DNA of 64,000 nt, from IMG/VR virus record IMGVR_UViG_3300013105_000002, positions 64,001 through 128,000 of that record, one strand, 5' to 3'. This stretch comes from a virus. Lineage: Duplodnaviria; Heunggongvirae; Uroviricota; Caudoviricetes. How positions within the stretch are numbered: position 1 is the first letter of the stretch; the number at the start of each line of letters is the position of its first letter. Position numbers and translations under genes: made by a program. Below are positions 18,328-60,900 of this stretch, piece after piece. A model generated the notes under the pieces. That model saw only the letters and a program-made list of their open reading frames with translations, was not told where the DNA came from and did no database searches.

Positions 18328-19334
18328 CTCTTGGGATCACCATTGATGGTGAGACTTTCAATGATTTCACGTGCATGTGTCCATTTCATGGAAACAGGCA
18401 CACACCCTCCATGTCGGTCGGAAAGACCAATGGGAAGTTCCTGTGCTTCAATGGTTCCTGTGGAGCCTCTGGTGACCTGACCGAACTGGTCAAGTCCATT
18501 AAGCACACCAACGAATTCCAGACGGCAAGGCTCATCGCCAAGGCCAAGAAGGACGATCCTACCGATTTTACAACCCTTCTCACGAAGGCGTTGGAGCCGG
18601 TGGACTTCAAGGAGTGGCAGTATGCCTCCACCATTCCAGCAATGGAAGAACGCCTCTTTGAGAGCGAAAAGGCATATGACTACATGGTCAACACACGCGG
18701 GTTCGAAGAATCCGTTCTCCGCGAGTACCATGTAGGATACAACGCAAAGCGAGACCTGATCTGCGTACCCATGTACACTGAAAAGGGATTGTGCGTTGGT
18801 GTGGTGGGTCGCCCGGTGCAGAAGGGCAAGGTAGCCTTCAAGAACTCACCGGGTCTACCACAGTCGAAGACGCTATGGAACATCCATAACGCAAAGCGAA
18901 CTGGCGACGTAGTTATCGTGTGTGAAGCAACTTTCGACGCCATGAAGATCGTCCAAGCAGGTTATCCAAATGTTGTAGCCTGCTTGGGCGGTAACTTCAG
19001 CGAGTACCACGCGCAGCAGTTGAGAAAGTATTTCAACACTGTCATCATCATGACGGACTTTGACGATGCAGAAAAGTACAAGTACAAGGATTGCCGCAAG
19101 TGTTTCAAGCGTGGCCTGAAGGAATGCGTTGGTCACAATCCGGGTCGAGCAACCGGAGAGAAGATTGCCGATTTGATGACCGGAAAGGCTGTCAAGTGGG
19201 CGGCGTATGATCACAAGTTGATCTACCCGAATGGTGCCAAAGACCCCGACGAAGCCGGGACGGCAGCCATTCGCCAGTGCATCCAGAACTCAGTCACGAA
19301 CTTTGAATATCAGAGTTGGGGTATTGCCTCGTAG
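18246..19334 (+). CDS. dnaG: DNA primase (CHC2 zinc finger + TOPRIM)
   Basis: CPFH...TPS...CFNGSC zinc finger; VCEATFDAM and TDFDD TOPRIM motifs; KDPDE. Confidence 0.9.
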   Translation: MGVYGSGRSRQSVSKQYTEGQVRSVLLTLGITIDGETFNDFTCMCPFHGNRHTPSMSVGKTNGKFLCFNGSCGASGDLTELVKSIKHTNEFQTARLIAKAKKDDPTDFTTLLTKALEPVDFKEWQYASTIPAMEERLFESEKAYDYMVNTRGFEESVLREYHVGYNAKRDLICVPMYTEKGLCVGVVGRPVQKGKVAFKNSPGLPQSKTLWNIHNAKRTGDVVIVCEATFDAMKIVQAGYPNVVACLGGNFSEYHAQQLRKYFNTVIIMTDFDDAEKYKYKDCRKCFKRGLKECVGHNPGRATGEKIADLMTGKAVKWAAYDHKLIYPNGAKDPDEAGTAAIRQCIQNSVTNFEYQSWGIAS

Positions 19335-19352
19335 CCCTTGGTCTGGTATAAT
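19324..19352 (+). promoter_or_regulatory. Sigma70-type promoter for SSB
   Basis: TTGCCT-N17-TATAAT. Confidence 0.65.
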
Positions 19353-19409
19353 AGACAGTACGGCCAAAGCGAACAACGGCCAAATAACACTAGGAGAAAT
19401 AAAACATAC

Positions 19410-20132
19410 ATGGGTATTCAAGAGGGACTTGACGCCATCAAGGCGTATAAGGCAGAGCAGGAGCGTCGTAAGGAAGCGGCGGACAAGCCAAAGACAGTTT
19501 GGCTGAACATTCCAGATGGAAAGACTTTCGAGATTCGATTCCTACAGGAGTTGGACAAGAGTGGTGCCGGGTATTCTGAGAAGAACGGTCTAGGATTCTT
19601 CGCCACGGAGCACTCAAACCCTGATGACTTCCGCAAGAAGGCACTATGCACCATCGAGACTGGTGAGTGCTACGGCTGCGAGCAGAAGGAACTATTCTAC
19701 AAGGCAAAGGACAATGTGCGCGGTGGTGGCTGGAAGGCCAAGAGCCGTCTGTACATCAACGTTCTGGTCCGTGACGACAAGGGCGAGGAATACGTCGCTG
19801 TCATGTCACAGCCGAACGGTGCAAAGTCCGTCATTGCACCAATGCTTGTCGATGAGGCAATCGACGGTGGCGTGACTGGTGCATGGTGGAAGATCACCCG
19901 TACTGGCAAGGGTTCCGAGACGGCCTACCGTGCTCGTATTTCCCCGCCGAAGGATGACGTTAACCCAGAGGACTACGAGTTGTTCGACCTGAAGAACTGC
20001 GTCCGTGAGGTTGACTACGAAGACCAGCCTGAGCATTTCTCAGTAACCGCAGAGCGTCCTGACTCTGGCGGCGAGCGAGAGACAGCATCGGCTGGATCAA
20101 GCAGCAAGGTTGACACCTCCGAAGAGTGGTGA
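19410..20132 (+). CDS. Single-stranded DNA-binding protein (gp32-like)
   Basis: IRFL...C...C..C zinc site, YINVLV, ITRTGKGSETAY, acidic tail ending in EEW. Confidence 0.75.
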   Translation: MGIQEGLDAIKAYKAEQERRKEAADKPKTVWLNIPDGKTFEIRFLQELDKSGAGYSEKNGLGFFATEHSNPDDFRKKALCTIETGECYGCEQKELFYKAKDNVRGGGWKAKSRLYINVLVRDDKGEEYVAVMSQPNGAKSVIAPMLVDEAIDGGVTGAWWKITRTGKGSETAYRARISPPKDDVNPEDYELFDLKNCVREVDYEDQPEHFSVTAERPDSGGERETASAGSSSKVDTSEEW

Positions 20133-43914: not shown

Positions 43915-43986
43915 GCCGATTAAGTGTTAATGGATGCACGGGCGATTGAAGATCATCAAGTGGGGGATCGTTACCCTCAATCGGCA
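43915..43986 (+). tRNA. tRNA-Phe(GAA)
   Basis: GCCGATT/AATCGGC, loop TT GAA GA (one anticodon-stem mismatch), GGATCGTTACC T arm. Confidence 0.75.
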
Positions 43987-43987
43987 C

Positions 43988-44064
43988 TGGGGTGTATTGG
44001 CGCTGGCTACGAACCAGTAGTGCATAACGGACTGAAAATGAGGGTTCGAATCCCTTCTCCCCAA
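43988..44064 (+). tRNA. Non-canonical tRNA-Arg(ACG): no D arm, D-loop-like motif in variable region
   Basis: TGGGGTG/CTCCCCA (one mismatch), 7-nt linker, GCTGG-CT ACG AA-CCAGT, 21-nt insert containing TAACGGAC, GAGGG-TTCGAAT-CCCTT. Confidence 0.65.
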
Positions 44065-45394: not shown

Positions 45395-45595
45395 ATGAGC
45401 GGTATGGGAGAGTCACTAGTAATTCAAGAGGACGTTTTCGCCAGCAGCGATTTGCGTCACCTCTCTTGGACTGACAGCAATGGCGTTACCCGTTTCTACG
45501 AGATTGTGTCTGATATGGCAGATGACGTAGAGTACGGTGTTGACAAGATTGCTACGGCAATTGGTGATATCGGCTACCAGACTTCTCATCAATGA
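45395..45595 (+). CDS. Hypothetical protein
   Basis: 66-aa ORF filling the gap between tRNAs. Confidence 0.5.
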   Translation: MSGMGESLVIQEDVFASSDLRHLSWTDSNGVTRFYEIVSDMADDVEYGVDKIATAIGDIGYQTSHQ

Positions 45596-45679
45596 ATCGG
45601 TGCCAGAGCATGGTCGATTGGGTCGGACTTTTAATCCGTTGCAGAAATGCCATCGTGGGTTCGAATCCCACCCGATTCT
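45594..45679 (+). tRNA. tRNA with Lys(TTT) anticodon and long variable arm
   Basis: GAATCGG/CCGATTC, CGGA-CT TTT AA-TCCG, variable hairpin GCA-GAAA-TGC, U73. Confidence 0.85.
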
Positions 45680-45684
45680 CAATG

Positions 45685-47841: not shown

Positions 47842-47870
47842 TTGACAGGTGCCCACCGACCTGCTAAACT
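47842..47870 (+). promoter_or_regulatory. Sigma70-type promoter
   Basis: TTGACA-N17-TAAACT; CCACC/GGTGG straddles the -10. Confidence 0.7.
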
Positions 47871-47878
47871 GGTGGAAT

Positions 47879-47961
47879 GCTCCGATAGCGCCGAGGTCTT
47901 CTAAGCCTTCCAGTATAATCAGCGTAACGGACGGATGGGGGTTCGAATCCCTCTCGGAGCG
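47879..47961 (+). tRNA. Non-canonical tRNA-Arg(TCT): no D arm, D-loop-like hairpin in variable region
   Basis: Perfect GCTCCGA/TCGGAGC acceptor, 7-nt linker, GAGGT-CT TCT AA-GCCTT, insert with CGT-AACGG-ACG, GGGGG-TTCGAAT-CCCTC. Confidence 0.7.
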
Positions 47962-47962
47962 C

Positions 47963-48034
47963 CGTGGTGTAGTTCAGTGGCAGAATAGTTCCCTCATAAG
48001 GAAAAGGCCGGTGGTTCGAATCCACCCATCACGA
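47963..48034 (+). tRNA. tRNA(CAT), elongator Met or Ile2
   Basis: CGTGGTG/CATCACG with paired 1:72, TTCC-CT CAT AA-GGAA. Confidence 0.85.
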
Positions 48035-48036
48035 CT

Positions 48037-48122
48037 AGCGGAGTAGAGCAGTTCGGAGTGCTCGCTAGGCTCATAACCTAGAGGTCGCAATTTAAGAGGT
48101 TCAAATCCCGCCTCCGCCACCA
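48037..48122 (+). tRNA. Initiator-like tRNA-fMet(CAT) with an 8-nt T-stem insertion
   Basis: A1xC72 mismatch, TAGAGCAG..GCTCG D arm, CTAGG-CT CAT AA-CCTAG, extra AATTTAAG in the T stem, encoded CCA. Confidence 0.75.
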
Positions 48123-60828: not shown

Positions 60829-60900
60829 GTCTCTATAGTACAACGGATAGTGCATAAGATTCCTAATCTTAGAATGGGGGTTCGAATCCCTCTAGAGACA
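60829..60900 (+). tRNA. tRNA-Arg(CCT), canonical
   Basis: GTCTCTA/TAGAGAC, D loop CAACGGATA, TAAGA-TT CCT AA-TCTTA. Confidence 0.93.

What the first reader, a model, noticed from the sequence alone, without database searches (positions are those of the whole stretch)
43988..44064. Rearranged tRNA-Arg(ACG): D arm missing, D-loop motif moved behind the anticodon arm
Seen: acceptor, 7-nt linker TATTGGC, anticodon arm with ACG, 21-nt insert AGT-gcaTAACGG-ACT, normal T arm. TAACGGAC (44025-32) also occurs in the Arg(TCT) gene at 47879 and matches the AACGGA D loop of the canonical Arg(CCT) at 60829. Established: G18-G19 dock on the T loop and A20 is the major ArgRS identity element. Inference: a tRNA architecture in which the D loop, including GGA, is supplied from the variable-arm side, possibly keeping arginine charging while evading host tRNA nucleases.
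Basis: partly seen in the sequence, partly recalled or inferred. Interest (0 to 1): 0.85.

Follow-up and report, generated by a model that had tools for sequence, protein, structure and literature searches.

The report
Phage tRNAs with a transposed D segment
This phage gene, and a second one nearby, belong to a widespread and mostly unannotated family of phage transfer RNAs in which half of the D stem and the D loop lie after the anticodon arm instead of before it, a tRNA wiring I found described nowhere.

Summary
Window 43988-44064 has a 7-bp acceptor stem, a 7-nt linker, an ACG anticodon arm, a 21-nt insert with TAACGGA, and a normal T arm. It has no D arm at the usual place. ARAGORN and the Rfam tRNA model both miss it.

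It is not a one-off:
- 47879-47961 (anticodon TCT) has the same layout.
- A covariance model finds 84 distinct relatives in 64 loci, including cultured Streptomyces, Rhodococcus and Alishewanella phages, where they are mostly unannotated.

Covariation instead shows that the linker pairs with the nucleotides just 5' of TAACGGA:
- Two pairs are paired in 84 of 84 sequences, with 3 to 4 Watson-Crick types each.
- The D stem is therefore re-formed with its strand order swapped.
- It is followed by A14-R15-Y-G18-G19-N20.

Three further results fit a real tRNA core:
- R15 covaries with the last base before the T stem (A-U 81, G-C 3, no exception), like the Levitt pair.
- N20 is A in all Arg members and U in all eight Ile-type members.
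- The two genes are the genome's only ACG and TCT tRNAs.

Expression, charging and any role in evading nucleases are untested. This scan had not noted the architecture on other DNA.

The parts
43988..43994 (+). c1 acceptor stem, 5' strand (TGGGGTG)
   Evidence: Pairs with 44057-44063 in 6 of 7 positions, with a U6.U67 mismatch. All 7 acceptor pairs covary across the family.
43995..43996 (+). c1 U8-A9 equivalents (TA)
   Evidence: Invariant in the 54 sequences of A1 and present in all 84 sequences of A2.
43997..44001 (+). c1 linker strand X (TTGGC), taking the place of D-stem positions 22-25 plus 26 and running straight into the anticodon stem
   Evidence: 43998 pairs with 44024 (U-A) and 43999 with 44023 (G-C). 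The two family columns are paired in 84 of 84 sequences, with CG/UA/AU and GC/AU/CG/UA types. The third pair is G.G in c1's subgroup.
44002..44018 (+). c1 anticodon arm, GCTGG-CTACGAA-CCAGT, anticodon ACG at 44009-44011
   Evidence: Five pairs including one G.U, and a 7-nt loop with U33 and A37. The stem covaries.
44019..44021 (+). c1 spacer (AGT) between the anticodon stem and strand Y
   Evidence: Spacer length varies from 3 to 12 nt across the family.
44022..44025 (+). c1 strand Y (GCAT), taking the place of D-stem positions 10-13
   Evidence: Partner of the linker strand.
44026..44031 (+). c1 relocated D-loop motif AACGGA (A14 A15 C16 G18 G19 A20 equivalents)
   Evidence: Same string as the D loop of the canonical Arg(CCT) gene at 60842-60847. 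Family variants are TA-R-Y(N)-GG-N, with A after GG in all Arg members.
44032..44039 (+). c1 connector CTGAAAAT, ending in the U48 equivalent at 44039
   Evidence: The last base before the T stem covaries with R15: A-U 81, G-C 3, no exception.
44040..44056 (+). c1 T arm, GAGGG-TTCGAAT-CCCTT
   Evidence: Canonical T loop. Stem pairs are 99% paired across the family.
44057..44064 (+). c1 acceptor 3' strand plus discriminator A; no CCA is encoded
   Evidence: A CCA-adding-type gene (PF01743) lies elsewhere in the genome.
47879..47961 (+). c2, the second gene of the same architecture: Arg(TCT, 47900-47902), linker TAGCGCC, D-type helix 47888-47891 with 47922-47925, motif 47925-47931, T arm 47937-47953
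   Evidence: Rfam tRNA scores 36.5 bits only with the D arm deleted and a 24-nt insertion. The family model scores 63-65 bits. The 4-bp helix adds -2.2 kcal/mol.
47842..47870 (+). promoter-like site TTGACA-17-TAAACT, ending 8 nt before c2
   Evidence: Matches 10 of 12 consensus positions. This is a consensus match only; the number of such sites in the region is not above the shuffled expectation.
43915..43986 (+). canonical tRNA-Phe(GAA), separated from c1 by a single base
   Evidence: The same Phe-(Gly)-X-CDS-Ala-Lys order is seen in Streptomyces phages Mildred21 and Yaboi.
60829..60900 (+). canonical tRNA-Arg(CCT) of the same genome, for comparison (D arm GTAC-AACGGATA-GTGC)

Best explanation
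c1 (43988-44064, anticodon ACG) and c2 (47879-47961, anticodon TCT) are most likely working arginine tRNAs of a phage-borne family. In this family the segment made of D-stem strand 10-13 plus the D loop has moved from in front of the anticodon arm to behind it.

The gene order is:
- acceptor 5' strand
- U8, A9
- a strand playing the role of positions 22-26
- the anticodon arm
- a short spacer
- a strand playing the role of positions 10-13
- A14 R15 Y16 G18 G19 N20
- a 4-10 nt connector ending in Y48
- the T arm
- acceptor 3' strand

Shown by comparison:
- The two D-type strands pair and extend the anticodon arm.
- R15 covaries with Y48.
- N20 follows the anticodon's amino acid.

Inferred:
- The helix stacks on the anticodon stem as a normal D stem does.
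- GG docks on the unchanged T loop, U8 pairs with A14, and the molecule keeps an L shape.
- RNase P and the CCA-adding enzyme mature it from the tRNA cluster transcript.
- Host ArgRS charges it through A20, C35 and G36/U36.
- It reads CGU/CGC/CGA (c1, after A34 to I) and AGA (c2).

Why the wiring persists is open. It may be tolerated after a single rearrangement, or it may protect against host or phage enzymes that act on tRNA.
For: 1. The layout is conserved. 54 distinct genes were found by motif scans. 84 distinct genes in 64 loci were found by the covariance model.
2. All helices covary. Overall 95% of cells are paired, against 33-50% when the partners are slid.
3. Linker/pre-motif helix: pair 1 is CG47/UA35/AU2, and pair 2 is GC55/AU15/CG11/UA3, both with no unpaired cell. 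Pair 3 is paired with six pair types in the 48 sequences outside c1's subgroup.
4. The R15 column against the last base before the T stem gives AU 81 and GC 3 with no exception. The three G-C cases lie in different contigs and isotypes.
5. The base after GG is A in 75 of 75 Arg members, 12 of which were not pre-selected by the motif. It is U in 8 of 8 GAT/TAT/CAT members. This matches the bacterial identity sets, Arg A20 and Ile U20 (PMC9976931).
6. The anticodon loops are canonical 7-mers with U33 and R37, and the T loop is TTCGAAT.
7. The genome has 30 canonical tRNAs, of which only CCT is Arg. c1 and c2 are its only ACG and TCT genes.
8. CGT, CGC and CGA make up 70% of Arg codons in 103 long ORFs, and AGA makes up 12%.
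9. The genes lie inside tRNA clusters, one base from their neighbours. The position is syntenic in Mildred21 and Yaboi.
10. The family model separates cleanly: c1 scores 74 bits and c2 65 bits, while canonical tRNAs of the genome score 31 bits or less.
Against: - There are no expression or charging data.
- Nearest-neighbour energies do not favour the new helix in c1: -16.7 to -17.4 kcal/mol with it, -17.5 without it, and a different MFE fold at -20.6 with z-score -0.1.
- RNAalifold on the MAFFT alignment predicts only the acceptor, anticodon and T helices.
- In c1's own subgroup (36 of 84) the third helix pair is G.G or A.G. c1 also has U.U at the 13-22 equivalent, so c1 has only two firm pairs.
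- c1 has a U6.U67 mismatch in the acceptor stem.
- GG, U8 and A14 are invariant, so their tertiary roles cannot be tested by covariation.
- 63 of the 75 Arg members were collected with a pattern that included A20.
- Many sequences are related, so cell counts overstate the number of independent events. The tree used for counting changes rests on about 50 columns.
Confidence: 0.7

Rival explanations
1. The D loop sits in a self-contained hairpin (AGT 44019-44021 with ACT 44031-44033) that emerges like a variable arm, and the 7-nt linker stays single-stranded.
For: In c1 the three pairs can form. The structure evaluates slightly better than the long-range helix, at -18.1 against -16.7 to -17.4 kcal/mol.
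Against: All three pairs form in only 5 of 54 relatives, and the single pairs are 28-48% paired, which is background level. A local hairpin in the T13-A20 register is also not conserved, at 22-44%. The linker covaries perfectly with the pre-motif bases, which this model leaves unexplained.
Confidence: 0.04
2. It is a D-armless tRNA without a tertiary core. The linker and pre-motif bases extend the anticodon stem as in human mitochondrial tRNA-Ser(GCU). The GG motif does not dock on the T loop and is kept only as a synthetase contact.
For: [quoted passage not shown] GG docking is not shown here.
Against: Unlike the mitochondrial case, several core features are all kept:
- the T loop is fully canonical
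- U8 and A14 are invariant
- the loop keeps D-loop length variation at positions 16-17 (TAACGG, TAATTGG, TAATAGG)
- R15 covaries with the base before the T stem, a contact that only makes sense in a folded core
Confidence: 0.1
3. It is a tRNA-like RNA that is not used in translation. Examples would be a decoy or sink for a tRNA-cutting or tRNA-modifying enzyme, a processing signal in the tRNA cluster, or a partner of the phage's Ro/Y-RNA-type module.
For: The genome carries other tRNA-like oddities and tRNA-related enzymes (earlier notes; PF01743). No charging or decoding data exist. The architecture might be a poor ribosome substrate.
Against: - The anticodons are diverse (ACG, TCG, TCT, CCT, GAT, TAT, CAT).
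- Position 20 and the discriminator follow the isotype. All ten Ile-type members inspected have A73.
- In this genome the two genes fill exactly the ACG and TCT gaps of an otherwise near-complete tRNA set.
- They match the phage's commonest Arg codons.
Confidence: 0.13
4. It is a decayed tRNA pseudogene left by a rearrangement.
For: c1 has an acceptor mismatch and a weak D-type helix. Standard finders reject it.
Against: The layout is conserved with compensatory changes in all four helices across 84 sequences from phages of unrelated hosts. The U6.U67 mismatch recurs in unrelated members, so it does not look like decay.
Confidence: 0.03

Closest known systems
Canonical bacterial and phage tRNA-Arg (class I cloverleaf; identity set A20, C35, G/U36, A/G73)
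   Same: It has a 7-bp acceptor stem, a 5-bp anticodon stem with a 7-nt loop, and a 5-bp T stem with a TTCGAAT loop. U8, A9, the A14-A15-C16-G18-G19-A20 string, and the Y48 partner of R15 are all present. The motif equals the D loop of this genome's own Arg(CCT).
   Different: The order of the parts differs. Strand 10-13 plus the D loop follows the anticodon arm, and the strand equivalent to 22-25 follows A9 directly. There is no hairpin-type D arm. ARAGORN misses 83 of 84 members.
D-armless mitochondrial tRNA-Ser(GCU/AGY) (PMC9427863)
   Same: There is no D arm at the usual site. The 5' connector pairs with bases 3' of the anticodon stem and so extends the anticodon arm.
   Different: The mitochondrial tRNA has lost the D loop, the canonical T loop and the whole tertiary core, and it is short. 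The phage family keeps all core nucleotides, is 74-90 nt long, and shows 15-48 covariation.
allo-tRNAs and 8/4 or 9/3 tRNAs of bacteria and phages (PMC5389517)
   Same: They are non-canonical tRNA architectures found in bacteria and phage tRNA clusters, and they are overlooked by standard finders.
   Different: Those change the split of the 12-bp acceptor/T branch and keep a normal D arm. Here the acceptor/T branch is the normal 7/5 and the D region is rewired.
Circularly permuted tRNA genes of Cyanidioschyzon merolae (from my own knowledge; not checked here)
   Same: The gene order of tRNA parts differs from the cloverleaf order.
   Different: In that case processing through a circular intermediate restores a canonical mature tRNA. 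Here the acceptor ends are in normal order and no processing step could restore the normal order.
Class II tRNAs (Leu, Ser, Tyr) with a long variable arm
   Same: Extra nucleotides lie between the anticodon arm and the T arm.
   Different: Class II tRNAs have a normal D arm and a self-paired variable hairpin. Here the extra segment pairs with the 5' linker and carries the D loop.

Membership tests
tRNA, canonical cloverleaf (Rfam RF00005) | 7-bp acceptor stem closing the molecule | tested here: met
   c1 pairs in 6 of 7 positions and c2 in 7 of 7. All seven pairs covary in the family.
tRNA, canonical cloverleaf (Rfam RF00005) | Anticodon arm of 5 bp with a 7-nt loop, U33 and a purine at 37 | tested here: met
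   The loops are CTACGAA (c1) and CTTCTAA (c2).
tRNA, canonical cloverleaf (Rfam RF00005) | T arm of 5 bp with a T-psi-C-type loop | tested here: met
   The loop is TTCGAAT in both genes, and stem pairs are 99% paired in the family.
tRNA, canonical cloverleaf (Rfam RF00005) | D hairpin (positions 10-25) between the acceptor and anticodon stems | tested here: not met
   Only 7 nt lie between the two stems. Rfam aligns c2 only with the D arm deleted. ARAGORN finds neither gene.
tRNA, canonical cloverleaf (Rfam RF00005) | Score at or above the family's gathering threshold (29 bits) | tested here: inconclusive
   c1 has no RF00005 hit and only a tRNA-Sec hit at 22.4 bits against 47. c2 scores 36.5 bits against 29.
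tRNA, canonical cloverleaf (Rfam RF00005) | Core tertiary set: U8-A14, R15-Y48, G18G19 with the T loop | tested here: inconclusive
   All the nucleotides are present in relocated order. R15-Y48 covaries (AU 81, GC 3). U8, A14 and GG are invariant, so they cannot be tested by comparison.
Bacterial tRNA-Arg identity set (PMC9976931) | A20 in the D loop | tested here: met
   A follows GG in c1 (44031), in c2 (47931) and in 75 of 75 Arg members. U follows GG in 8 of 8 Ile-type members. That this A occupies the spatial position of A20 is inferred.
Bacterial tRNA-Arg identity set (PMC9976931) | C35 and G36 or U36; A/G (or U) at position 73 | tested here: met
   c1 is ACG with A73, and c2 is TCT with G73.
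Bacterial tRNA-Arg identity set (PMC9976931) | Arginylation by ArgRS | not testable with these tools
   The phage has no ArgRS gene, so host ArgRS would have to act. An in vitro assay is needed.
D-armless mitochondrial-type tRNA | [quoted passage not shown] | tested here: met
   Covariation between the linker and the pre-motif bases.
D-armless mitochondrial-type tRNA | Loss of the D-loop and T-loop core nucleotides | tested here: not met
   The T loop is canonical and the A14-R15-Y-GG-N20 string is retained.

The most novel reading that the evidence does not exclude
These are fully functional translating tRNAs with a backbone topology not described before. They show that the tRNA core tolerates transposition of the 10-21 segment. 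The rewiring is selected because it makes phage Arg and Ile tRNAs invisible to host, or the phage's own, tRNA-targeting nucleases or modifiers that read the normal D-arm connectivity.
Probability: 0.2. Interest if true: 0.95.

Novelty: new variant of a known kind. Interest (0 to 1): 0.82.

Why it matters
The cloverleaf order of tRNA parts is treated as near-universal outside organelles. A large natural family that keeps every core nucleotide but joins them in a different order would show that the L-shaped core is defined by contacts, not by chain connectivity.

Consequences if true:
- It gives synthetase, RNase P, EF-Tu and ribosome researchers a natural test substrate.
- It reveals a class of tRNA genes that standard finders miss (83 of 84 here). 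Phage tRNA complements and codon-supply analyses are therefore incomplete.
- It offers a new scaffold for orthogonal tRNA design.

Members occur in cultured Streptomyces, Rhodococcus and Alishewanella phages, so the claims can be tested directly at the bench.

Tried and rejected
- Two scans that combined an anticodon loop with TAACGGA (14 specified bases) returned almost only chance matches. They added one member (L171).
- RNAalifold on the MAFFT alignment did not recover the new helix. Single-sequence folding gives other MFE structures. Thermodynamics therefore neither supports nor excludes the helix.
- For c1's subgroup I tried two ways to complete the helix: a bulged purine in the linker, or a bulged G in the partner strand. 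The columns are nearly invariant, so the choice stays open.
I sampled 151 Actinomycetes genomes through another handle instead and found no member. The two 41-bit hits are genes that ARAGORN calls as ordinary tRNAs.
- One genome-contig scan for the main-group pattern gave 4 hits in 185,579 species genomes. Only one is a real member, on an 85-kb contig of a Bifidobacterium MAG.
- Seven literature searches found no description of this architecture. The library lacks most subscription journals, so this is not proof of absence.
- ORFs overlapping c1 (49 aa on +, 64 and 126 aa on -) also run across the neighbouring tRNA-Phe gene, and I did not treat them as genes.

Full report
**What is in the window.**
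The stretch 43988-44064 reads, in order:
- acceptor 5' strand TGGGGTG
- TA
- TTGGC
- anticodon arm GCTGG-CTACGAA-CCAGT (anticodon ACG)
- AGTGCA
- TAACGGA
- CTGAAAAT
- T arm GAGGG-TTCGAAT-CCCTT
- acceptor 3' strand CTCCCCA
- discriminator A

ARAGORN finds 19 tRNA genes in the window but not this one. The Rfam tRNA model does not match it, and the only hit is tRNA-Sec at 22.4 bits against a gathering score of 47. The gene starts one base after the canonical tRNA-Phe at 43915-43986.

A second gene, 47879-47961 (anticodon TCT), has the same layout: a 7-nt linker TAGCGCC, a 27-nt stretch containing TAACGGA, and a normal T arm. Rfam aligns it to tRNA (36.5 bits) only by deleting the D arm and inserting 24 nt. 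The canonical Arg(CCT) gene at 60829 has the D arm GTAC-AACGGATA-GTGC, so AACGGA is this genome's Arg D-loop string.

**It is a family.**
The window is part of a 131,350-bp virus record with terminal repeats. blastn found a copy in Rhodococcus phage NiceHouse, lying under an annotated 'hypothetical protein'.

Scans of IMG/VR for TAACGGA followed at a short distance by GGTTCGAATCC returned three kinds of sequence:
- ordinary Met and Asn tRNAs whose anticodon arm happens to contain the string
- some tRNA-like mini elements
- 54 distinct genes with the c1 layout

A covariance model built from these 54 (R1) separates the family cleanly from ordinary tRNAs. In the own genome c1 scores 74 bits and c2 65 bits, while every canonical tRNA scores 31 bits or less. 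Over the fetched loci R1 finds 89 matches, 84 of them distinct, in 64 loci. ARAGORN misses 83 of the 84.

Members in cultured phages:
- about 30 Streptomyces phages, including Daubenski, Mildred21, Moab, Gilson, Comrade, Yaboi and Genie2
- Rhodococcus phage NiceHouse
- Alishewanella phages Slicko01 and Slickus01

In these records the gene is mostly unannotated. It is labelled 'tRNA-OTHER' in Mildred21, 'tRNA-Val(aac)' in Yaboi and 'tRNA-Ser' in Slicko01. The order Phe-(Gly)-X-CDS-Ala-Lys in Mildred21 and Yaboi matches the window, so c1 is their ortholog.

Cellular genomes appear to lack the family. One pattern scan of 185,579 species genomes gave a single real member, on an 85-kb MAG contig. 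A sample of 151 Actinomycetes genomes gave none.

**The structure that the comparison supports.**
I anchored positions on the anticodon stem and on the motif, independently of any pairing. On that basis the three linker bases before the last one pair with the three bases just 5' of TAACGGA.

On the MAFFT alignment A1:
- columns 12/48 give CG 29, UA 24, AU 1
- columns 13/47 give GC 39, AU 8, CG 5, UA 2
- neither pair has an unpaired cell
- the third pair has CG 11, GC 11, AU 5, single GU, UA and UG cases, and 24 purine-G mismatches

On the 84-sequence alignment A2 the same two pairs are paired in 84 of 84 sequences. Examples of the paired triplets are CAC/GTG, CAG/CTG, CGC/GCG, CGG/CCG, CTG/CAG, CCC/GGG, CGA/TCG, CAT/ATG, ACC/GGT and CTC/GAG. 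Sliding the partners by one to three columns drops pairing from 95% to 33-50%.

The linker is therefore one strand of a short helix that encloses and extends the anticodon arm.

The linker runs 5' to 3' into the anticodon stem, as positions 22-26 do in a normal tRNA. Its partner runs away from the anticodon stem and continues into A-R-Y-(N)-G-G-N, as positions 10-13 continue into 14-20. The simplest description is that the segment 10-21 has been transposed from between positions 9 and 22 to between positions 44 and 45.

**Evidence that the relocated loop acts as a D loop.**
- The loop varies as D loops do: TAACGG, TAATGG, TAGCGG, TAGTGG, TAATTGG and TAATAGG. A14 and GG are fixed and there are one or two pyrimidine-rich positions before GG.
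- Its second purine (R15) covaries with the last base before the T stem: A with U in 81 sequences and G with C in 3, with no exception. The three G-C cases lie in different contigs and carry TCG, TCT and TAT anticodons. This is the pattern of the 15-48 Levitt pair, and this pair was not part of the model used for the alignment.
- The base after GG follows the anticodon. It is A in all 75 Arg members, 12 of them found without the A being part of the search pattern. It is U in all 8 members with GAT, TAT or CAT anticodons. A20 is the main bacterial ArgRS determinant and U20 is listed for bacterial tRNA-Ile (PMC9976931).
- U8 and A9 are invariant.

GG-to-T-loop docking itself cannot be tested by comparison and remains an inference.

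**Evidence that the genes are used.**
- The whole genome has 30 ARAGORN tRNAs covering 19 amino acids. Its only canonical Arg gene is CCT, so c1 and c2 supply the only ACG and TCT anticodons.
- In 103 long ORFs, CGT, CGC and CGA make up 70% of Arg codons and AGA 12%.
- Neither gene encodes CCA, and a PF01743 CCA-adding-type gene lies at genome position 19245-19667.
- There is no ArgRS gene, so host ArgRS would have to charge them.
- A TTGACA-17-TAAACT site ends 8 nt before c2. This is a consensus match only.

**Limits.**
- Energy models do not favour the new helix in c1: -16.7 to -17.4 kcal/mol with it against -17.5 without it, and the MFE of -20.6 is a different fold. In c2 the 4-bp helix adds 2.2 kcal/mol.
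- RNAalifold predicts only the three classical helices.
- c1 belongs to a subgroup (36 of 84; linker TGGC, partner GCA) in which the third pair is G.G. Two completions with a bulge are possible and cannot be told apart.
- c1 also has U.U at the 13-22 equivalent and a U6.U67 acceptor mismatch.
- The sequences are related, so counts of cells overstate independent events. A tree from the remaining ~50 columns gives 18 and 26 minimum changes for the two firm pairs, but that tree is weak.

**Breadth.**
The architecture is not limited to arginine. The model also finds it with these anticodons:
- GAT: L410:2751, L392:11181, L403:7163
- TAT: L410:4475, L357:3146, L411:1057, L414:6559, L417:2165, L384:8810
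- CAT: L417:3179
- TCA: L395:440

UCU differs from UAU by a single base. An Arg-to-Ile switch within one lineage is therefore as plausible as separate origins. I did not test this.

**Comparison with what is known.**
The nearest secondary-structure analogue is the D-armless mitochondrial tRNA-Ser(GCU). [quoted passage not shown] The phage family keeps the core nucleotides.

The 8/4 and 9/3 allo-tRNAs of bacteria and phages alter the acceptor/T branch, not the D region (PMC5389517). Seven full-text searches found no description of a tRNA with this connectivity. The earlier notes of this scan contain none either.

**Verdict.**
The proposed hairpin is replaced by a strand-swapped D stem. Function in translation is likely but unproven, and the nuclease-evasion idea is open. 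I rate this a new variant of a known kind, with high interest.

Noticed in passing
L410:2751-2832, L410:4475-4552, L392:11181-11259 (-), L403:7163-7243, L357:3146-3222, L411:1057-1133 (-), L414:6559-6648, L417:2165-2253, L417:3179-3255, L384:8810-8891 (-): The same transposed-D layout occurs with Ile-type anticodons (GAT, TAT, CAT). These members have U instead of A after GG, and all have A73. The CAT member groups with the Ile members, which suggests a lysidine-type Ile2 rather than Met.
   Followed up: partly
L395:440-527: A member of the family has a UCA anticodon (loop CTTCAAA), keeps the Arg-type GGA, and has a hairpin in the connector. It may read UGA.
   Followed up: no
L004:2100-2210 and about 45 near-identical contigs of metagenome 3300045988; also L060 and L075: These are tRNA-like mini elements. 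An 8-9 bp acceptor-like stem encloses a CTTT-AACGG-AAAG hairpin and a canonical T arm, with no anticodon arm.
   Followed up: no
window 43993/44058, and alignment A2 columns 6/95: A U6.U67 mismatch in the acceptor stem recurs in members with unrelated acceptor sequences. 15 of 84 sequences are unpaired at this one pair; the unpaired cells at this pair in A1 were 7 U.U and 1 U.C. Examples are c1, L070, L367, L037, L358, L380 and Alishewanella phage Slicko01.
   Followed up: partly
window 44018-44027 and 60848-60857: The 10-mer TAGTGCATAA is shared by c1 (end of the anticodon stem, spacer, strand Y, start of the motif) and by the canonical Arg(CCT) gene (end of the D loop, 3' D strand, position 26, start of the anticodon stem). 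It may be a trace of how the rearrangement arose, or it may be chance.
   Followed up: no
L421:619-713 (Streptomyces phage Yaboi, record 85804-85898): An unannotated 95-nt tRNA-like sequence lies between tRNA-Val and tRNA-Leu. It has an acceptor and a T arm, the string GGTAACGGATAG before the T arm, and no clear anticodon arm (34.6 bits with R2).
   Followed up: no
L436:1500-1573, L437:1501-1576 (Actinomycetes genomes); L001:2437-2511 and 2905-2978 (NiceHouse): These are genes of 74-76 nt that are called or annotated as tRNA-Leu (anticodons taa and caa). They have class I length and no long variable arm, which is unusual for Leu.
   Followed up: no
window 48037-48122 and 45594-45680: An 83-86 nt tRNA-Met(CAT) has an extra 14 nt before a poorly paired T stem (Rfam 34 bits, three non-standard pairs). 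A Lys(TTT) gene has a class II-like variable hairpin. Other odd tRNA bodies thus share the cluster.
   Followed up: no
window 43986-43988 and 47961-47963: Single-base spacers separate tRNA-Phe from c1 and c2 from tRNA-Met. RNase P cleavage at the downstream gene would leave the upstream tRNA with a one-base (C) trailer, ready for CCA completion.
   Followed up: no
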